Source: a virus
Taxonomy: Duplodnaviria > Heunggongvirae > Uroviricota > Caudoviricetes
IMG/VR virus record: IMGVR_UViG_3300043447_000028
Coordinates: 1 to 17,156 of that record
Reading direction: 5' to 3' (one strand)
DNA length: 17,156 bases
Positions 4,761 to 13,800 of the stretch are shown here, piece by piece; positions within the stretch are counted from its first letter, which is position 1; each line of letters opens with the position of its first letter. The notes beneath the pieces are model-generated. The model had not been told where the DNA came from, made no database searches, and saw only the letters and a program-made list of their open reading frames with translations. The position numbers and the translations under genes are program-made.

Positions 4761-5305
4761 TGGATAGAACTATTGATAAAAACGGGAATGAGATTTTCCT
4801 AGAGAATTGGGAAGATATCAAATTTATACCGAAGGTTCTAACTAAACAGCAATGTGATGATCTAATTAAAGACGCTGATTTCGAGAACACTCCAAATAAT
4901 ATACCTAATTATGAACCAGATACTCTTATAGAAAGAAGAAAAATTGTACATCACGAATTAGTTAAATTACTGAGTGATAGATATTCATGGGATGTCACCC
5001 ATAGCCCTATTTTGTGGTATAAACCTGGTGTTTCCAATGAACCACATGCTGATAGTTTTGCTTATCTCGGTAGAGATGAGAACCAAGATAATATCGTTGA
5101 AAGAATTATGCCTTGGAAAAGAACTGCAGTTATATTTTTGAATGATGATTTTGATGCTGGTGAATTAGTTTTCCCTAAGTTTGGGGTAACTATAAAACCA
5201 AAAACTGGTAACATGGTGCTATCTTCTGGTGGGTATGAATTTTTACATTATACAGAAGCAGCTTCTAAAGATAGATATGTGTTAGTTGTTAGAATCAATA
5301 ATTGA
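4760..5305 (+). CDS. 2OG-Fe(II) oxygenase (prolyl-4-hydroxylase-like)
   Basis: 'PHADS', 'AVIFLNDDFDAGELVFP', distal His 'LHYT' and 'RYVLV'. Confidence 0.85.
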   Translation: MDRTIDKNGNEIFLENWEDIKFIPKVLTKQQCDDLIKDADFENTPNNIPNYEPDTLIERRKIVHHELVKLLSDRYSWDVTHSPILWYKPGVSNEPHADSFAYLGRDENQDNIVERIMPWKRTAVIFLNDDFDAGELVFPKFGVTIKPKTGNMVLSSGGYEFLHYTEAASKDRYVLVVRINN

Positions 5306-5330
5306 CACGCAACCTTTCATAATGTATAAT
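5302..5330 (+). promoter_or_regulatory. Consensus sigma70 promoter of the tmRNA gene (TTGACA-17-TATAAT)
   Basis: Exact consensus hexamers at 5302-5307 and 5325-5330; predicted TSS about 5337. Confidence 0.9.
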
Positions 5331-5336
5331 AGTGAT

Positions 5337-5650
5337 ATTGCTGTATGAAGCAAAGAGAAAAGTGTTCTGGACGGGAGTTCGATTCTCCCCACCTCCACCA
5401 AAAACATATTGAGCAAGACGTCGTACTCTTGTTAAGATTTGATGTTGTTAGCGCAGTTAAATTATTCAGTATGTTTTTGATGGGGGTGACTAGGTTTCGA
5501 CAGGGCAACAAGTAAACAAGTGGACAGCACGGTAGGCGATGACCGTAAATCAAGCAAACTAAGTAAATGCAAACGACTCTGTCTACGCATTAGCAGCCTA
5601 AACGCTGCTTAGGGTTTCGGTAGGTTTCCTCGTAACAGAATAACCTACCA
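5337..5650 (+). ncRNA. ssrA: Circularly permuted (two-piece) tmRNA: acceptor piece ~5337-5400, intervening segment 5401-5481, coding piece 5482-~5650; tag (A)ANDSVYALAA at 5569-5601
   Basis: T-arm GGGAG-TTCGATT-CTCCC and CACCTCC-A-CCA end come before GGGGGTG-ACTAGGTTTCGAC. The acceptor stem is 7 bp with G3:U70. H2 pairings CAGGGCA/TGTTCTG and ACAGC/GCTGT, a pk1-like ACGGT/ACCGT stem and a GCAGC/GCTGC hairpin at the tag end are present. Confidence 0.93.
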
Positions 5651-5659
5651 TCTTTATTA

Positions 5660-5721: not shown

Positions 5722-6288
5722 ATGAAATTGAAAATGTTAGTAGCTGCATTATTGGTAGCTGGTTCTTCTATCGCAAGCGCACAGTCTTCTATGACTGTAG
5801 GATATGCCGTACAAGACGACGTTAGCCCAGCCGTGCAAAAGCACGTTAATTCTTTGCGAGTTCAAACACGATTGTTCGGCAAAGTTGATGGTGACATTGG
5901 TATTTCTGCGACTACTGCAGACGTAGCAAACACTATCTCTAATCGTTATGAAGCAGGTTTGACATATAGCCAACCACTTAACTCTGTATTTACAGCATCT
6001 ATTCGTGGTGGGTTGGGTACCAAACAATCGTCTGGTAAACCAGATTATCCATACCATTCAGTAGAACCAGCAGTTTCTGTTAAGTTGCCGATTGATGGAT
6101 TATCAGCTAAAGTTGGTTATCGTTTCCGTAGTGGATTTGATTCTGTCGCAAAAGATACCAACGAAGCAACTCGTTTGCAACTGGCATATGCATTAACTAA
6201 GCAAGATCGAATTGCTGTTGGTTATGATATCCAACGTGGTGATGGTGCGAACAAAACTATCGCATTGAACTATACACGAGGTTTCTAA
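5722..6288 (+). CDS. Outer-membrane beta-barrel protein with signal peptide
   Basis: Sec signal (MKLK-hydrophobic-ASA), alternating beta-strand pattern, C-terminal 'LNYTRGF' BamA-type signature; AGGA RBS. Confidence 0.75.
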   Translation: MKLKMLVAALLVAGSSIASAQSSMTVGYAVQDDVSPAVQKHVNSLRVQTRLFGKVDGDIGISATTADVANTISNRYEAGLTYSQPLNSVFTASIRGGLGTKQSSGKPDYPYHSVEPAVSVKLPIDGLSAKVGYRFRSGFDSVAKDTNEATRLQLAYALTKQDRIAVGYDIQRGDGANKTIALNYTRGF

Positions 6289-6551
6289 TGAATGTTATTC
6301 CATTGAAGGATAGAGTTCTCGTTGCAGAGAACAAGCGTGAGAACACTACAGAATCTGGTATTGTCTTGCAAGGTGCAGGTTTCGATCAATCGAAAACAGG
6401 TACTGTTCTAGCCATTGGTCCAGATGTTACTGATGTTAAAGTTGGTGATGTGATTTATCTGGAATGGAATAAGGCAGCAGTTGTCAAGATTGGTGACGCA
6501 CAACGTGTGATGATCAAGCAAGAAAACATCGTTGCTGTATTAGAACAATGA
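6288..6551 (+). CDS. groES: GroES/Cpn10 co-chaperonin
   Basis: 'IPLKDRVLV', mobile loop 'TTESGIVL', 'GTVLAIGPD' and 'VKVGDVI'. Confidence 0.92.
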   Translation: MNVIPLKDRVLVAENKRENTTESGIVLQGAGFDQSKTGTVLAIGPDVTDVKVGDVIYLEWNKAAVVKIGDAQRVMIKQENIVAVLEQ

Positions 6552-7054
6552 ACATTGCTGTCCTCTGCAATGGTCCAAGCAGAGTAGTCTTTCGAGACTC
6601 TCTGGCTTATGACTATGTTATCGGTTGTAACATACCTTGGACTGTTGTAGATGCGACAGTAATTCTCGACCCAGAAGTCATCCACTACATGGGTAAGAAT
6701 CCTGAACTTATCAAGACTCCAGCTTATTTCTCTCGAAAGGCTTGGATGATTACAGATGAGATCAAAAAGAGAAAACTTTTTGAACCTTATCTGATTGAAC
6801 TCATTGACCCTAAATATCCTTATCACTCTGCTGGTCACGTAGCTGTAGAAGCTATGATTCGTAAGGGTGCGACTGGGATCGATATTTTTGGTTGTGATTC
6901 TTGGTTTGAATCTACGTTAGAAAGTCACACTCATCAGTTTGTTGATACATCAGATGAGACTAAGCGATGCATCGAAGCGTGGCGTACTAGATGGAATTCT
7001 ATCATCGAGAACAATCCCGAAGTAAAAATTAACTTCATCAAAGGAAATATATGA
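6548..7054 (+). CDS. Hypothetical protein with MptE/DUF115/sialyltransferase-like motifs
   Basis: 'IAVLCNGPS' at the N-terminus and 'SAGHVAVEAMIRKGATGIDIFGCD' resemble this Rossmann-like group; function uncertain. Confidence 0.5.
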   Translation: MNIAVLCNGPSRVVFRDSLAYDYVIGCNIPWTVVDATVILDPEVIHYMGKNPELIKTPAYFSRKAWMITDEIKKRKLFEPYLIELIDPKYPYHSAGHVAVEAMIRKGATGIDIFGCDSWFESTLESHTHQFVDTSDETKRCIEAWRTRWNSIIENNPEVKINFIKGNI

Positions 7055-7230
7055 AACACTTGTTAGTATTGATCGCTTTAGCATTCACTTCTGCTACATT
7101 CGCAGCTGATGCTCCAGCAGCTAAGAAAGACGAAACTAATTGTGTGACACGTGATAAGAAGGGTAACTGCCCTCCACCACCAAAGTCACCAAAGCCAACT
7201 CCAAAGAAGAAGGCTGAAGAGAAGAAATAA
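7051..7230 (+). CDS. Unlisted 59-aa secreted peptide MKHLLVLIALAFTSATFA|ADAPAAKKDETNCVTRDKKGNCPPPPKSPKPTPKKKAEEKK
   Basis: AAAGGA RBS, ATGA overlap with the upstream stop, signal-peptide pattern, TAA at 7228-7230; fills the gap left in the ORF track. Confidence 0.85.
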   Translation: MKHLLVLIALAFTSATFAADAPAAKKDETNCVTRDKKGNCPPPPKSPKPTPKKKAEEKK

Positions 7231-7235
7231 TCTTC

Positions 7236-7242
7236 CTAAATA
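7236..7242 (+). promoter_or_regulatory. Possible T4-type late promoter (CTAAATA, overlapping TATAAT)
   Basis: TAAATA core just after the upstream stop; no -35 at the expected spacing. Confidence 0.45.
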
Positions 7243-7247
7243 TAATA

Positions 7248-7280
7248 CCAGCCTGACAGTGCTGGACACACAAACTGTCA
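7248..7280 (+). promoter_or_regulatory. H-type RNA pseudoknot in the leader of the 92-aa gene
   Basis: S1 CCAGC(7248-52)/GCTGG(7261-65), L1 1 nt, S2 TGACAGT(7254-60)/ACTGTCA(7274-80), L3 ACACACAA; all 12 pairs are Watson-Crick. Confidence 0.7.
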
Positions 7281-7308
7281 ACTTTACACACAACACAGGA
7301 GAAGTAAA

Positions 7309-7587
7309 ATGTCTAATATGACACCGTTCGAGATTCGCCTTGAACTACTAAAAATGGCGAAAGATATGCTTGTTGAAGAATACTACGGTAAGAAAGAACA
7401 AGTATCACAAGATTGGCACGTTAAGGTAGAAAGTGCCAGACATAATGGATCTCCACCACCAGAGCATCCAGCAATGCCAATATATCCAACTGAAGCTGAT
7501 GTTGTCGCAAAGGCAACACAACTAAACGGCTTCGTGTCTCAAATCCCCAACACTACACAAGAAAAGACTAGCAAAAAGTCCACCTGA
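7309..7587 (+). CDS. Hypothetical phage protein (MTPFEIRLELLKMAKDML type)
   Basis: AGGAG RBS, 92 aa, bounded by its own putative promoter and terminator. Confidence 0.8.
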   Translation: MSNMTPFEIRLELLKMAKDMLVEEYYGKKEQVSQDWHVKVESARHNGSPPPEHPAMPIYPTEADVVAKATQLNGFVSQIPNTTQEKTSKKST

Positions 7588-7597
7588 TAAGGGATCG

Positions 7598-7628
7598 GTC
7601 AGAGGGTTCACACACCTTCTGACTTTTT
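7598..7628 (+). terminator. Rho-independent terminator
   Basis: GTCAGAGGGT-TCACAC-ACCTTCTGAC (10 bp, one G:U) followed by TTTTT. Confidence 0.75.
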
Positions 7629-7647
7629 AACCATAAAGGAGATAACT

Positions 7648-8208
7648 ATGCGTTTATACCGTATATACATTCCGCTTATATTATTGTTTATAAGTTTGGT
7701 TGTCTTAACAAAAACAACTTATACAGAGACTCTCAATCTTAGCGTTAAGATCTCTCAGCTGACAAAAGAGTCTCAACAACAAGTTCACTGTTTGGCAGAG
7801 AACATCTATCACGAAGCAGGTTTTGAACCAGTCGATGGTAAAGTTGCTGTGGCATTGGTTACGATGAATCGTCTTCAAGACCCTCGTTATCCAAAAGATA
7901 TTTGCTCTGTAGTGAAACAAAGAGTAAAATCAACTTGTCAGTTCTCTTGGTTCTGTGAACATGGTAAGTCAATCAAGAATCAGACAGTTTATGAAGATGC
8001 ATTAGAAGTTGCACTTCGAGTTTTCGCTAACTACGAAACTACACCAGACATCACCAAAGGTGCTCTGTTCTATCATGCCGATTATGTTAACCCTCGTTGG
8101 CGTGGTTTAGAAAAAACTACCGTAATTGGTAGACACATATTTTATAAAGAAAGCGAACGATACTATGATGCAAAAAATGAATCTCCAACTAAAGGAAGAA
8201 AGCTCTAG
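7648..8208 (+). CDS. SleB/Hydrolase_2 cell-wall hydrolase with N-terminal hydrophobic anchor or signal
   Basis: 'CLAENIYHEA', 'GKVAVALVTMNR', 'ICSVVKQ', 'CQFSW', 'ALFYHADYVNPRW' and 'IGRHIFY'. Confidence 0.9.
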   Translation: MRLYRIYIPLILLFISLVVLTKTTYTETLNLSVKISQLTKESQQQVHCLAENIYHEAGFEPVDGKVAVALVTMNRLQDPRYPKDICSVVKQRVKSTCQFSWFCEHGKSIKNQTVYEDALEVALRVFANYETTPDITKGALFYHADYVNPRWRGLEKTTVIGRHIFYKESERYYDAKNESPTKGRKL

Positions 8209-8722
8209 ACATGCATTCTACCTAATGATGGAAGAAATTTCACTCAGTACAGTTAAAGGTGCAGTTGAGTGGATTTTTGAAGCTAACTTTAGTGAAGAAC
8301 CACCAGAGTTGCTAAACTTGATTATTACATCTCCAGGTGGTGATTTGAACGCAGCATTTGCGTTGATTGATGTTATGCGTGGTTCATCTATTCCTGTGCG
8401 AACAATCGGTCTTGGACAGATTGCTTCTGCTGGTCTGATGATTTTCATTGCTGGTGATAAAGGTATGCGAATTCTTACTCCGAACACATCAATCCTAAGT
8501 CATCAATACTCGTGGGGTGCGTTTGGTAAAGAACATGAACTTTTTGCCACAGTAAAAGAATTCGATTTAACAACAAAGAAGATGACTCAACACTACAAAA
8601 AGTGTACTGGTCTCTCTGAAAAACAAATTCGTGATGTGCTCTTGCCACCACAGGATATTTGGCTGAGTCCATCCGAAGCTAAGAAGCTAGGAATCTGCGA
8701 CGATGTTAAAGAACTTTCTTAA
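8165..8722 (+). CDS. clpP: ClpP-family serine protease
   Basis: 'ITSPGGD', catalytic Ser in 'IASAG', His in 'LSHQ', Asp in 'QDIWLSPSEAKKLGICD'. The start is uncertain; ATG 8165 is preferred. Confidence 0.9.
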   Translation: MMQKMNLQLKEESSRHAFYLMMEEISLSTVKGAVEWIFEANFSEEPPELLNLIITSPGGDLNAAFALIDVMRGSSIPVRTIGLGQIASAGLMIFIAGDKGMRILTPNTSILSHQYSWGAFGKEHELFATVKEFDLTTKKMTQHYKKCTGLSEKQIRDVLLPPQDIWLSPSEAKKLGICDDVKELS

Positions 8723-11445: not shown

Positions 11446-11664
11446 ATGGACTTGATTACTAAATACAATAACCTGATTGCAGAACGCATGAAGATGGACA
11501 AATTCTTTACAATGTTTTTGGACAAGTATGAACGCAAGATGGATCCAGAACGCACAGATACGCCTATCTGGAAACTCTACAAACAAAAGCATAAAGAATA
11601 TGGACAACTTTGTCAAGAAATTAGAAACACTAACTACTACATACAACGACAAGCCAATGTTTAA
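11446..11664 (+). CDS. Hypothetical helical protein
   Basis: 72 aa from ATG 11446; earlier starts fall inside the promoter. Confidence 0.7.
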   Translation: MDLITKYNNLIAERMKMDKFFTMFLDKYERKMDPERTDTPIWKLYKQKHKEYGQLCQEIRNTNYYIQRQANV

Positions 11665-11872
11665 GACTGCGAACGAATTCTCACTGCATATCGAATCTAT
11701 CGTGAAGGATAAGCGTCTTAGTTATATGGACGCTGTCCTTGATTACTGTAAAGAAAACTATCTCGAACCTGCCGATGTTGCATCACTTATCAACAAGTCA
11801 TTGAAGGATAAGATTGAGATGGATTTTCGTGAATTGAATTATCTACCAAAACAGGCTAAGCTAGATGTCTAA
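11657..11872 (+). CDS. gp33: T4 gp33-like late transcription coactivator
   Basis: 'FSLHIESIV....SYMDAVLDYC......DVASLINKSLKDKIE....LNYL'; position before gp59; start reset to ATG 11657. Confidence 0.88.
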   Translation: MFKTANEFSLHIESIVKDKRLSYMDAVLDYCKENYLEPADVASLINKSLKDKIEMDFRELNYLPKQAKLDV

Positions 11873-12050
11873 ACTTATATTCTTTATACCATCTATTGTG
11901 TTGATTGCAATGATGGTGTTAGTTATAACATTGGCAAGACACGCAGACGAAAGAACGATTAGAATCGACTGTACCATTGCAGAGATATCACCCGATATCC
12001 CAGTGGAAGCCAAAGAACTTTGTAGGAAACATCGAAGTGGACGGATTTAA
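11865..12050 (+). CDS. Small membrane protein with Cys pair
   Basis: N-terminal TM helix; 'IDC..AEISPDIP...KELCR'. Confidence 0.65.
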   Translation: MSKLIFFIPSIVLIAMMVLVITLARHADERTIRIDCTIAEISPDIPVEAKELCRKHRSGRI

Positions 12051-12648
12051 GGCATATCGTTATTACCTAGCGATCAAATTACACTTCACGACTGAGAAAT
12101 TTAATGTCTTCGAAAATAGAGGAAATGTTAAAGGGACACGTGAAGCATTTAATGCTAGGAATGACAGATACATTTTTGAGAAACTTGCCACAAAGTTTGA
12201 GGCAGACAAAGACATTATTCAGTTCTTTGTAGCAAACTTTGCATATGGTAATGGTAATGCAATCTATGAAGGTAAGGAAGCCATCGATAACCTCACTGAG
12301 TGGAATAGACGCAAACAATCTATCACTCAAGTGTTTGTTAACGATCTCGCTAAACTATTGACATATGTAGAAGTCAATAAGTTACCGACCAGCGCAATCT
12401 TTAACTTTACTGATGATGAGTACCCAGTTGCGTTGAAATTATTCATCGGTGGTCAAATAAGTATTGAGACACTTAGAATTATCGATGATCGAACTCCAAT
12501 TATTGATCAGTGGTCTTTGAATACTGCTGTTCAGAATATATGGAGTAACGAATTGTTGAGAGTTAAAAAGTTGACAGGATTTGTGAAATACGATAAGATT
12601 AAACTGAAAATGATTTTTACACACTTCATGGAAGAAATTGCAGAGTAA
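12037..12648 (+). CDS. gp59: T4 gp59-like helicase loader
   Basis: 'GFKAYRYYLAIKLHFT', 'RNDRYIFEKLA', 'FFVANF' and 'ISIETL'; GTG start at 12037 with AGGA RBS; lies between gp33 and gp32. Confidence 0.88.
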   Translation: MDGFKAYRYYLAIKLHFTTEKFNVFENRGNVKGTREAFNARNDRYIFEKLATKFEADKDIIQFFVANFAYGNGNAIYEGKEAIDNLTEWNRRKQSITQVFVNDLAKLLTYVEVNKLPTSAIFNFTDDEYPVALKLFIGGQISIETLRIIDDRTPIIDQWSLNTAVQNIWSNELLRVKKLTGFVKYDKIKLKMIFTHFMEEIAE

Positions 12649-12652
12649 TACG

Positions 12653-12868
12653 ATGGGCAAGACTTACAATCAATCGAAGCGATTCGATGACGAATTTGGT
12701 GGGCGTTCAGGGAAACCTGCCAAACATAGCAACGGTAAAAAAACTGGTGGTATGAGAACGCTAAATAGTTATGTTGAAGAAGATTATGACATCAACGCCG
12801 ATGATTTCGACGATGAGTTTGAACTTGATGATGAAATTTCAATACAACATAATACTAATACAAAGTAA
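12653..12868 (+). CDS. Small protein with basic N-terminus and acidic C-terminus
   Basis: 'MGKTYNQSKRF...DDFDDEFELDDE'; sits between gp59 and gp32. Confidence 0.65.
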   Translation: MGKTYNQSKRFDDEFGGRSGKPAKHSNGKKTGGMRTLNSYVEEDYDINADDFDDEFELDDEISIQHNTNTK

Positions 12869-12886
12869 ATACTAAGGAAAATACTA
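12841..12886 (+). repeat. Five AATAC(A/T)A units in the gp32 leader
   Basis: Copies at 12841, 12851, 12857, 12868 and 12880, around the AAGGA RBS. Confidence 0.65.
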
Positions 12887-12888
12887 AA

Positions 12889-13800
12889 ATGGATATTCAA
12901 AAACTACGTGCTATGCGCAACTCTGATTTCGGTGCAATCTCTAACGCATTCGAAAAAGTAGCAAACCCTCAAACTGAAACCAAGTCATACAACGACGATC
13001 GCTTCTGGCGTCTCGAAGGTGACAAAGCTGGCAATGGTACTGCCACTTTGCGTTTCCTCCCACGTGTTGAAGGCGATGAACTCCCATGGGTTCGTATCTT
13101 CTCTCATGGTTTCCAAGGTCCAACTGGTAAATGGTACATCGAAAATTCTCTGACCACTCTTGGTGAGAATGACCCTGTCGGTGAACTCAACACGCAGCTA
13201 TGGAACTCTGGTTCTGAAGCCAACAAAGAAATTGCACGTAAGCAAAAGCGTAAGCTGAGTTTCACTGCTAACGTCTTGGTTGTGTCTGATCCAAAACACC
13301 CAGAGAACGAAGGCAAGGTATTCTTGTTCAAGTTCGGTAAGAAAATCTTCGACAAGATTATGGACAAAGCACGTCCTACATTCGAGGATGAGAAGCCAGT
13401 GAACGTGTTTGATTTGTGGGAAGGTGCTAACTTCAAGCTGCGCATGCGTAAGAAGGATGGATATGCAAACTATGACGAATCTGCGTTCATGGAGCCTTCA
13501 GCCGTTTCTGACGACGAAGACACTCTGTTGAAGATTGTTAATAGCCAGCACAAGCTGTCTGAATTCACTGATCGTAAGAACTTCAAGTCTTATGATGAGT
13601 TGAAGAAGAAGCTGAATGAAGTTTTGTCTGGTGATTCTTTTGCACCTAAGAGTGCAGCTGAAATTGCTGACGAACCACGTTCTGCGCCAGCACCTGCTTT
13701 CACTGCGAAAGCTGCACCACAACCTAAGTCTGTTGCCTCTAACCAAGACGACGATGAAGATGTGATGTCTTATTTCCAGAAGATTGCCAACGACGAGTAA
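12889..13800 (+). CDS. gp32: T4 gp32-like single-stranded DNA-binding protein
   Basis: 'DDRFW....DKAGNG.A..RFLP', 'HGFQGPTGKWYIENSLTTLG..DPV', 'PENEGKVFLFKFGKKIFDKI' and an acidic tail. Confidence 0.97.
   Translation: MDIQKLRAMRNSDFGAISNAFEKVANPQTETKSYNDDRFWRLEGDKAGNGTATLRFLPRVEGDELPWVRIFSHGFQGPTGKWYIENSLTTLGENDPVGELNTQLWNSGSEANKEIARKQKRKLSFTANVLVVSDPKHPENEGKVFLFKFGKKIFDKIMDKARPTFEDEKPVNVFDLWEGANFKLRMRKKDGYANYDESAFMEPSAVSDDEDTLLKIVNSQHKLSEFTDRKNFKSYDELKKKLNEVLSGDSFAPKSAAEIADEPRSAPAPAFTAKAAPQPKSVASNQDDDEDVMSYFQKIANDE

What the first reader, a model, noticed from the sequence alone, without database searches (positions are those of the whole stretch)
7248..7308. Gene-32-type H-pseudoknot and ACACACAA repeats in front of an unknown gene
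A 5-bp S1, 1-nt L1, 7-bp S2 and 8-nt L3 are all perfectly paired. This nearly matches the established T2/T4 gene 32 autoregulatory pseudoknot geometry (5/1/7/7), yet it precedes the 92-aa gene at 7309 and not gp32. It starts right after a putative late promoter and is followed by an unstructured CA-rich run to the RBS. ACACACAA occurs at 7266 and 7286, and CACAC recurs in the terminator loop at about 7609. Inference: a self-contained unit with a translational operator or ligand sensor, possibly bound by the 92-aa protein or by gp32. A mimic of a type III antitoxin pseudoknot is a more speculative alternative.
Basis: partly seen in the sequence, partly recalled or inferred. Interest (0 to 1): 0.7.

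Follow-up and report, generated by a model that had tools for sequence, protein, structure and literature searches.

The report
Conserved pseudoknot leader on phage gene
The pseudoknot is real and kept by evolution: in uncultured T4-like aquatic phages, one small late gene of unknown function carries a leader made of a folded RNA knot at the predicted mRNA start, an ACA-rich single strand and a strong ribosome site; no such leader was found in Rfam or in the papers searched, and its mechanism is untested.

Summary
S1 is 7248-52/7261-65, L1 is 7253, S2 is 7254-60/7274-80 and L3 is 7266-73. An ACA-rich, G-free tract (7281-7297) runs to AGGAG and the ATG at 7309.

A single pseudoknot of this quality is not rare: about a dozen comparable ones occur in the window. 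Comparison makes it real. Among 129 distinct leaders of homologues of the 92-aa gene, 64 carry an H-type pseudoknot at the same place, with unrelated stem sequences and compensatory changes. 41 carry a simple 5' hairpin. All keep the ACA-rich tract.

By the T4-family rule, the CTAAATA late promoter puts the transcript start at the first pseudoknot base. Rfam has no match. The leader is specific to this gene. The phage's own gene 32 (12889-13800) has a different leader.

My best reading (about 0.45) is a 5'-end cap for mRNA stability plus an ACA-motif translation enhancer. A gene-32-style protein operator stays open at about 0.25. A riboswitch or a type III antitoxin mimic is unlikely.

The 92-aa protein is a helical hairpin with no known relatives. 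First-stage readers of this scan noted the same leader on other genomes.

The parts
7236..7242 (+). CTAAATA, T4-family late-promoter-like box
   Evidence: The same heptamer precedes structural-gene starts elsewhere in the 81-kb record. It is conserved in front of the homologous leaders. In phage Aeh1, CTAAATA begins at -12, and the T4 box TATAAATA spans -13 to -6 (PMC1524935). No sigma-70-like promoter is called here.
7248..7280 (+). H-type pseudoknot. S1 is 7248-52/7261-65, L1 is 7253, S2 is 7254-60/7274-80 and L3 is 7266-73. The predicted transcript start is at 7248, give or take a base.
   Evidence: Sequence read. Covariation in window-type relatives: 94.7% of cells paired and 3 pairs with compensatory change, against 16-52% paired in slid controls. 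RNAalifold finds S2 by itself. G-U pairs in S2 (4 of 8 sequences) fit the + strand only.
7281..7297 (+). ACA-rich, G-free single-stranded tract (ACTTTACACACAACACA)
   Evidence: Across 129 leaders the tract between the structure and the SD is A 46%, C 34%, T 19%, G 2%, with a median length of 18 nt. There are 5.2 ACA triplets per 30 nt, against 0.63 in the genome background. The tract is unique to this gene in the 81-kb record. In five relatives' records of about 165 kb (96-100% complete) its count equals the control count.
7297..7301 (+). Shine-Dalgarno AGGAG, 7 nt before the ATG
   Evidence: A G-rich block at -11 to -7 is conserved in 129 leaders. It is unpaired in the MFE fold.
7309..7587 (+). 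92-aa gene of unknown function, predicted as a helical hairpin
   Evidence: 1726 homologous clusters and 310 representatives at 50% identity. No Pfam, PHROG, PADLOC or PDB match. AlphaFold2 pLDDT 86.8, with helices 6-46 and 62-78 joined by a Pro-rich linker. The only structural look-alikes are uncharacterised proteins of uncultured phages.
7597..7628 (+). 11-bp hairpin (loop TCACAC) plus T-run: terminator or 3' stabiliser
   Evidence: RNAfold of the 75 nt after the stop codon. A stable hairpin at the same place occurs in nearly all homologous loci, with variable loops.

Best explanation
The 61-nt leader (7248-7308) is a conserved, gene-specific cis-acting module that sets high late expression of the 92-aa protein.

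Transcription from the CTAAATA late promoter is predicted to start at, or one base before, the first pseudoknot nucleotide. The mRNA would then begin with a compact H-type pseudoknot. I infer that this knot acts as a 5'-terminal cap against 5'-end-dependent decay (RNase E/RppH type), as 5'-terminal stem-loops do.

The following G-free tract carries 4 of the leader's 9 ACA triplets; three more lie in L3. It keeps the ribosome binding site single-stranded. I infer that it works as an ACA-motif translation enhancer or ribosome landing pad in front of a strong AGGAG.

A hairpin after the stop codon closes the unit.

Shown: the structure, its conservation and covariation, its position next to the promoter, the ACA enrichment and the gene specificity.

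Inferred: the transcript start, the stabilising role and the enhancer role.
For: 1. The pseudoknot is real. Of 129 distinct homologous leaders, 64 have a pseudoknot at this place, with 42 distinct stem-sequence types kept after excluding seven doubtful calls.

2. Covariation in the window type: 94.7% paired, 3 compensatory pairs.

3. Covariation in the GGGTTG type: 97.3% paired, 5 pairs and 33 cells compensatory, score 0.456 against 0.166 +/- 0.02 in shuffles, and 32-60% paired in slid controls.

4. What is conserved is a stable structure at the very 5' end, not one fold or sequence. 41 leaders have a plain hairpin instead. The tree needs 7 pseudoknot/hairpin changes as a minimum, and starred branches force at least 5 for either label. 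Identical proteins carry unrelated pseudoknots (L060/L062 and L055/L059).

5. The structures begin 0-11 nt after the TAAATA hexamer. The T4-family rule places +1 six nt after it (PMC1524935), which is 7248 here.

6. ACA triplets are about 8-fold enriched. ACA motifs upstream of an SD are experimentally shown translation enhancers: replacing four of them in dppA cut expression more than 100-fold (PMC3879156).

7. The SD and start codon are unpaired.

8. A 3' hairpin is nearly universal.

9. Precedent: T4 gene 32 mRNA, whose leader carries a pseudoknot about 67 nt upstream of the start codon near an RNase E processing site at -71, is the most stable T4 mRNA (PMC3014915).
Against: 1. Other late genes of the same genome, such as the sheath-like gene after the box at 57103, lack any such leader. 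A generic high-expression device would be expected on more than one gene. Gene specificity is more typical of specific regulation.

2. In the largest class (GGGTTG type) the knot starts 8-11 nt after the hexamer. That leaves 3-6 unpaired 5' nucleotides if the T4 rule holds, which is at the edge of what protects in E. coli.

3. The primary sequence ACACACAACACA is kept down to about 35% protein identity. That is more than lack of structure alone requires.

4. Pseudoknots dominate the crown group although a hairpin would suffice as a cap.

5. No transcript mapping, half-life or reporter data exist, and the host is unknown.
Confidence: 0.45

Rival explanations
1. Translational operator of the gene 32 type. 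A protein nucleates at the pseudoknot or on the ACA repeats and spreads over the unstructured tract to occlude the RBS, giving feedback or timed repression. The protein could be the 92-aa product itself, the phage's gp32 or another factor.
For: 1. The architecture matches the T4 operator: a pseudoknot of about 28 nt at the 5' end, followed by an unstructured repeat-bearing tract that includes the RBS (PMC535899; PMC3014915).

2. The geometry is 5 bp / 1 nt / 7 bp / 8 nt.

3. The leader is specific to one gene.

4. The ACACA sequence is conserved far beyond the stems.

5. In several classes ACACA is displayed twice: once in L3 or in the hairpin loop, and once in the tract.
Against: 1. Stem sequences are free to vary, and identical proteins pair with unrelated knots.

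2. The knot is replaceable by hairpins.

3. The 92-aa protein is near neutral by my residue count (11 Lys/Arg against 12 Asp/Glu). It has no recognisable RNA-binding fold or family.

4. The tract is 17 nt of C/A, or 28 nt to the ATG, against more than 40 nt of A/U with UUAAA repeats in T4.

5. The phage's own gene 32 lacks such a knot.

6. Nothing here tests binding.
Confidence: 0.25
2. Ligand-sensing pseudoknot riboswitch (preQ1-I, SAM-II or glutamine-II style) controlling the 92-aa gene.
For: It is a small H-type pseudoknot with an A-rich L3 in a 5' UTR, as in the pseudoknot riboswitch classes. A related cultured phage, Melnitz, carries a glutamine riboswitch just after its tmRNA.
Against: 1. 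No Rfam family reaches even E = 0.9 on the leader in the window. None reaches its gathering score in 20 diverse loci.

2. No invariant loop or junction nucleotides were seen across classes.

3. S2 is a stable 6-7 bp helix that needs no ligand.

4. The SD lies 17 nt downstream and is never part of the knot, so no expression platform is visible.

5. Several lineages replaced the knot with a plain hairpin.
Confidence: 0.04
3. RNA processing or maturation signal. The knot marks a cleavage or stop point that separates this mRNA from upstream read-through transcripts. It might descend from the tmRNA's own 3' pseudoknot and borrow its partners, such as ribosomal protein S1.
For: 1. The tmRNA gene lies 0.04-1.6 kb upstream in most relatives.

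2. The tmRNA ends in its own covarying pseudoknot.

3. In 10 of the 129 leaders the gene follows the tmRNA with no promoter between.

4. In some loci a second copy of the tmRNA knot follows the gene (59-64 bits).

5. The leaders of L017, L047 and L069 share TTCGGTGG...AGAAT...CCACCA with the tmRNA knot.
Against: 1. A covariance model of the tmRNA knot does not hit leader knots significantly: L189 scores 12.7 bits at E 1.3 and L017 scores 8.8 bits at E 9.2, and there are no other hits.

2. Most leaders have their own late promoter immediately in front of the knot.
Confidence: 0.06
4. Chance structure, or a mimic of a type III antitoxin (ToxI-like) pseudoknot.
For: Single-sequence pseudoknots of this score occur about a dozen times in the window.
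Against: Covariation and positional conservation across about 130 leaders. No tandem repeat array. No ToxN/AbiQ-like or any PADLOC family next to it.
Confidence: 0.02

Closest known systems
Translational operator of T4/T2/RB69 gene 32 (pseudoknot plus unstructured tract)
   Same: It lies in the 5' leader of a T4-family phage mRNA. It is an H-type pseudoknot with a 1-nt L1 crossing a 7-bp S2. The knot sits at the 5' edge of the leader, followed by an unstructured repeat-bearing tract that contains the RBS.
   Different: It precedes a 92-aa gene of unknown function, not the ssDNA-binding protein. The tract is C/A-rich (ACA repeats, 17 nt) instead of A/U-rich (UUAAA repeats, more than 40 nt). It follows a late promoter. 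There is no sequence similarity and no binding data. The phage's own gene 32 has no such knot.
ACA-motif or C/A-rich translation enhancers upstream of the SD (yifK, dppA; GcvB targets)
   Same: Several ACA triplets lie in a single-stranded stretch directly upstream of the SD. Position and spacing are flexible among relatives.
   Different: Those are enterobacterial chromosomal genes silenced by a G/U-rich sRNA. Here no G/U-rich partner exists in the 81-kb record, and the enhancer activity is untested.
5'-terminal stabilising stem-loops of bacterial mRNAs (ompA type; from my own knowledge)
   Same: A stable structure lies within a few nucleotides of the predicted 5' end. Its sequence is free but its position is fixed, and in relatives it is interchangeable with a plain hairpin.
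   Different: It is usually a hairpin, not a pseudoknot. Stabilisation is not shown here.
Small pseudoknot riboswitches (preQ1-I, SAM-II, glutamine-II)
   Same: Size, H-type fold, A-rich L3 and 5' UTR location.
   Different: No Rfam match, no conserved ligand-pocket bases, the SD is not sequestered, and S2 is long and stable by itself.
tmRNA pseudoknots
   Same: The phage's own two-piece tmRNA, 1.6 kb upstream, ends in an H-type knot of similar build. A few relatives' leader knots share short motifs with it.
   Different: A covariance model of the tmRNA knot gives no significant hit on leader knots.

Membership tests
T4-type gene 32 translational operator | Lies in the leader of gene 32 (ssDNA-binding protein) | tested here: not met
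   gp32 is at 12889-13800 (PF08804 at 4.2e-48; phrog_224). The knot precedes the 92-aa ORF at 7309.
T4-type gene 32 translational operator | H-type pseudoknot of about 28 nt at the 5' end of the operator | tested here: met
   A 33-nt knot with 5 bp / 1 nt / 7 bp / 8 nt, supported by covariation.
T4-type gene 32 translational operator | An adjacent unstructured A+U-rich tract of more than 40 nt with UUAAA/UAAA repeats that overlaps the RBS | tested here: not met
   The tract is unstructured but C/A-rich (A 46, C 34, T 19, G 2%) with ACA repeats. It is 17 nt long, or 28 nt to the ATG.
T4-type gene 32 translational operator | Bound and repressed by gp32 | not testable with these tools
   Needs binding and reporter assays.
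Pseudoknot riboswitches in Rfam (preQ1-I/II/III, SAM-II/V, glutamine-II, fluoride and others) | Match to the family covariance model at its gathering score | tested here: not met
   Window leader at E up to 10: only noise (Pseudomon-1 on the wrong strand, 16 bits against a gathering score of 50). In 20 diverse loci at gathering threshold only tmRNA and tRNA matched.
Pseudoknot riboswitches | An expression platform: the SD or a terminator is sequestered by the ligand-bound fold | tested here: not met
   The SD lies 17 nt 3' of S2 and is unpaired. The same layout holds in relatives.
Type III toxin-antitoxin antitoxin RNA (ToxI-like) | A tandem array of antitoxin repeats upstream of a ToxN/AbiQ-type endoribonuclease | tested here: not met
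   No tandem repeats in 6900-7800. No PADLOC family on the 92-aa protein or its neighbours.
5'-terminal mRNA stabiliser structures | A stable structure within a few nt of the transcript's 5' end | tested here: inconclusive
   The structure starts 0-11 nt after the TAAATA hexamer in 105 leaders. The predicted +1 is 7248 by the rule in PMC1524935. No experimental 5' end is known, and 3-6 unpaired nt are predicted in the largest class.
ACA-motif translation enhancer | ACA triplets in single-stranded RNA just upstream of the SD that raise translation | tested here: inconclusive
   The motif density criterion is met: 5.2 ACA per 30 nt against 0.63 in the background. Activity was not tested.
T4 gp33 late-transcription co-activator (considered for the 92-aa protein) | Match to the gp33 family and a position next to gp59 and gp32 | tested here: not met
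   gp33 is the ORF at 11528-11872 (phrog_254 at 6e-20), followed by gp59 and gp32. The 92-aa protein matches no PHROG.

The most novel reading that the evidence does not exclude
The leader is a second, independent phage example of pseudoknot-nucleated translational control. A so far unknown RNA-binding factor recognises the knot's shape together with the duplicated ACACA single strands. The best candidate is the 92-aa helical protein itself, acting autogenously. It would shut off its own mRNA once enough protein has accumulated late in infection. The 92-aa family, with more than 1700 clusters, would then be a new class of small phage RNA-binding regulators.
Probability: 0.2. Interest if true: 0.8.

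Novelty: new variant of a known kind. Interest (0 to 1): 0.6.

Why it matters
The gene 32 operator has been described as possibly the only viral pseudoknot used in translational autoregulation (PMC3014915).

Here a covariation-supported pseudoknot leader sits on a different, uncharacterised but very widespread gene of T4-like aquatic phages. The gene has 1726 protein clusters, and more than 587 IMG/VR contigs encode it. The closest cultured phages by gp32 are the SAR11 and OM43 myophages. The leader is absent from Rfam, and none of the full-text paper searches run here turned up a description of it.

It offers three things:
- a clean natural series of swapped knots and hairpins for testing what a 5'-terminal pseudoknot adds over a hairpin;
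- a natural test case for ACA-motif enhancers outside enterobacteria;
- a handle on a highly conserved late protein of unknown function that is regularly paired with a membrane-anchored cell-wall hydrolase.

Tried and rejected
1. Rfam, at gathering threshold over the whole window and at E up to 10 on the leader: only the tmRNA matched. The same held for 20 relatives.

2. The 92-aa protein as gp33. This was prompted by Melnitz, where the co-activator follows the tmRNA. Rejected: gp33 is at 11528-11872, and Melnitz has no homologue of the 92-aa protein.

3. Fold and sequence identification of the protein. Pfam, PHROGs, PADLOC, a PDB profile search, Foldseek against PDB, tblastn against GenBank phages and the ESM Atlas gave only uncharacterised phage proteins.

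4. Descent of the leader knot from the tmRNA 3' knot. The covariance model R1 finds tmRNA copies and duplicated copies. Leader knots score at most 12.7 bits with E 1.3 or worse. Not supported.

5. An antisense or G/U-rich partner for the ACA tract in the 81-kb record: none with 11 or more of 12 pairs.

6. A regulon of similar leaders: none in the 81-kb record. Counts equal the control in five records of about 165 kb that are 96-100% complete.

7. CACAC in the terminator loop as a conserved feature: seen only in the window's clade.

8. A sigma-70 promoter using the overlapping TATAAT at 7241-46: no -35 element, the site is not called by the scan, and TATAAT is not conserved in relatives while CTAAATA is.

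9. A pseudoknot in the phage's own gene 32 leader: the best score is 17, which is noise.

10. MAFFT could not align all knot classes in one register. Pair counts were therefore made on two geometry-homogeneous subsets. One row (L118) remains shifted by one column in S1 in A4 and is counted as unpaired there.

Full report
**What is there**

The window is the first 17 kb of an 81-kb IMG/VR virus record, estimated about half complete. By gp32 its closest cultured relatives are Pelagibacter phage HTVC008M and Methylophilales phage Melnitz, at 51-52% identity. The region is syntenic with Melnitz: PDDEXK nuclease, two-piece tmRNA, gp33, gp59, gp32.

Read directly, the leader of the ORF at 7309 has these parts:
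- CTAAATA at 7236-42
- S1 CCAGC 7248-52 with GCTGG 7261-65
- L1 C7253
- S2 TGACAGT 7254-60 with ACTGTCA 7274-80
- L3 ACACACAA 7266-73
- ACTTTACACACAACACA at 7281-97
- AGGAG at 7297-7301
- ATG at 7309

After the stop codon comes an 11-bp hairpin at 7597-7624, followed by a T-run.

**Is it more than chance?**

Nested folding sees nothing special, with a z-score of -0.06, as expected for a pseudoknot. With a simple pseudoknot scorer the leader scores 31. Scores of 30 or more occur in about 0.2% of dinucleotide shuffles of such leaders.

The same scorer finds 12 sites scoring 29 or more in the 17-kb window on both strands. One sequence alone therefore proves nothing.

**Comparative evidence**

The 92-aa protein has 1726 homologous clusters at 90% identity and 310 representatives at 50% identity. 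More than 587 IMG/VR stretches encode it. I collected leaders from 149 loci, 129 of them distinct.
- 64 have an H-type pseudoknot at the same place.
- 41 have a single 5' hairpin.
- 10 follow the 3' end of the tmRNA gene directly.
- The rest are unclear.

48% of distinct leaders score 26 or more, against 1.5% of shuffles.

The knots fall into classes with unrelated stems. Examples are CCAGC/TGACAGT, NGGG/TGNNNG, CATGG/TGATAGT, AGCGAC/TGGGTAT and CTGGC/GGTGG. They share one build: S1 of 4-7 bp, L1 of 0-2 nt, S2 of 5-7 bp that usually starts TG and ends CA, and an A-rich L3.

Pair counts on the window-type subset (8 sequences) gave 94.7% of cells paired. Three pairs show changes on both sides. 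Slid controls gave 16-52%.

Pair counts on the GGGTTG-type subset (19 sequences) gave 97.3% paired. Five pairs and 33 cells show compensatory change. One S2 pair shows all four Watson-Crick types. The covariation score is 0.456, against 0.166 +/- 0.02 in shuffles, and slid controls gave 32-60%.

RNAalifold independently predicts S2 in both sets. G-U pairs in S2 fit only the + strand.

**What else is conserved**

1. Position. The structure, whether knot or hairpin, begins 0-11 nt after the TAAATA hexamer. Some relatives carry an extra 5' hairpin in front of the knot, which pushes the knot itself further downstream. CTAAATA also precedes structural-gene starts elsewhere in this genome. In T4 the late box spans -13 to -6, and in Aeh1 CTAAATA begins at -12 (PMC1524935). 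That puts +1 at 7248, the first base of S1.

2. The tract between the structure and the SD. It is A 46, C 34, T 19 and G 2%, with a median length of 18 nt. It holds 5.2 ACA triplets per 30 nt, against 0.63 in the genome background. It persists down to about 35% protein identity.

3. A strong, unpaired SD.

4. A hairpin after the gene.

Stem sequence is not conserved. Identical proteins sit behind unrelated knots (L060/L062 and L055/L059). On a weakly resolved protein tree, pseudoknot and hairpin states need 7 changes as a minimum, and well-supported branches force at least 5 for either label.

The leader is specific to this gene. No other ACA-rich leader exists in the 81-kb record. In five records of about 165 kb that are 96-100% complete, the tract motif occurs no more often than its reversed control, apart from this leader.

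**Mechanism**

A structure of any sequence, fixed at the predicted 5' end, is the signature of a 5'-terminal protective cap. From my own knowledge, 5'-terminal stem-loops shield E. coli mRNAs from 5'-end-dependent RNase E attack when few nucleotides are left unpaired. Within the T4 family, gene 32 mRNA is the most stable T4 message. Its leader carries a pseudoknot about 67 nt upstream of the start codon, near an RNase E processing site at -71 (PMC3014915).

ACA triplets upstream of an SD are proven translation enhancers in Salmonella (PMC3879156).

My best-supported reading, at about 0.45, is a cap plus enhancer plus strong SD plus 3' hairpin cassette for high late expression.

The main rival, at about 0.25, is a gene-32-style operator. 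The layout is the same (PMC535899). Gene specificity and the conserved, often duplicated ACACA single strands suit a specific binder. Recognition would have to be of shape or of the ACA tract, not of the stems. The 92-aa protein itself is near neutral and shows no RNA-binding signature.

A riboswitch is unlikely. There is no Rfam match, no expression platform, no invariant pocket bases seen, and hairpin substitutions occur.

A type III antitoxin mimic is excluded as far as sequence can tell.

**The protein**

AlphaFold2 gives a confident helical hairpin with pLDDT 86.8: helix 6-46, a Pro-rich linker and helix 62-78. No solved structure resembles it. No family library names it. No GenBank phage encodes it at E 1e-3 or better. 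It is not gp33.

It is regularly followed by a membrane-anchored Hydrolase_2 cell-wall hydrolase, even in a distant relative with a hairpin-type leader. It usually lies 0.04-1.6 kb downstream of the phage tmRNA.

**Relation to the tmRNA knot**

The tmRNA ends in its own covarying pseudoknot. That knot is duplicated on both sides of the gene in one clade. A few leader knots share short motifs with it. A covariance model of the tmRNA knot does not match leader knots significantly, so common descent is not supported.

**Earlier notes of this scan**

First-stage readers described the same leader on other genomes (e1-5326963, e1-5735758). They also described the hairpin variant with a CA-rich loop (e1-5883745). 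These are unchecked notes. My loci show both forms.

**Verdict**

This is a genuine, covariation-supported RNA motif that I found neither in Rfam nor in the papers searched. It has a gene-32-like build but sits on another gene and carries a different single-stranded tract. Its mechanism is inferred, not shown.

Noticed in passing
window 5288-5656: The phage encodes a two-piece (permuted) tmRNA with the tag ANDSVYALAA. It ends in its own covarying H-type pseudoknot at about 5611-5650 (AGGG..GGTAGGTT..CCT..CGTAACAGAAT..AACCTACC). GroES-like (6288-6551) and ClpP-like (8126-8722) genes lie nearby.
   Followed up: partly
L147:1422-1464 and 1730-1772 (also L153-L156, L168): In one clade the 92-aa gene follows the tmRNA directly. 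A second near-identical copy of the tmRNA 3' pseudoknot (59-64 bits with model R1) follows the gene, so the gene is flanked by a duplication of the tmRNA end.
   Followed up: partly
window 12851-12888: The phage's own gene 32 (12889-13800) has no pseudoknot in its leader. It has three AATACTAA repeats at 12851, 12868 and 12880 in an A/U-rich stretch, reminiscent of the UUAAA repeats of the T4 operator. The gp33-gp59-(76 aa)-gp32 order is kept (11528-13800).
   Followed up: partly
window 7648-8208 and relatives (L019, L030, L060, L091, L143): The 92-aa gene is regularly followed by a Hydrolase_2 (SleB-type) cell-wall hydrolase with a hydrophobic N-terminus. The two are separated only by the hairpin and a strong SD. 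This is a conserved gene pair whose meaning is unknown.
   Followed up: partly
L135:1405-1470 and L218 (Melnitz):6803-6850: A shared unannotated element, AGGGTGATGCCTTAATACATCCGT plus a hairpin around CAACGGTTAG. It lies upstream of gp33 in Melnitz and upstream of the ACA tract of the 92-aa homologue in L135. It has no Rfam match.
   Followed up: partly
window 7051-7230: A 59-aa ORF with a signal-peptide-like N-terminus, two Cys residues and a Lys/Pro-rich tail (PPPPKSPKPTPKKKAEEKK) lies directly upstream of the late box. Similar Lys-rich ORF ends precede the leader in many relatives.
   Followed up: no
window 7588-7596 and relatives: A conserved box, GGGAT(C/T)GG, lies just after the stop codon and before the 3' hairpin, with TTAAC(T) after the hairpin. 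It is conserved across relatives although the hairpin stems vary.
   Followed up: no
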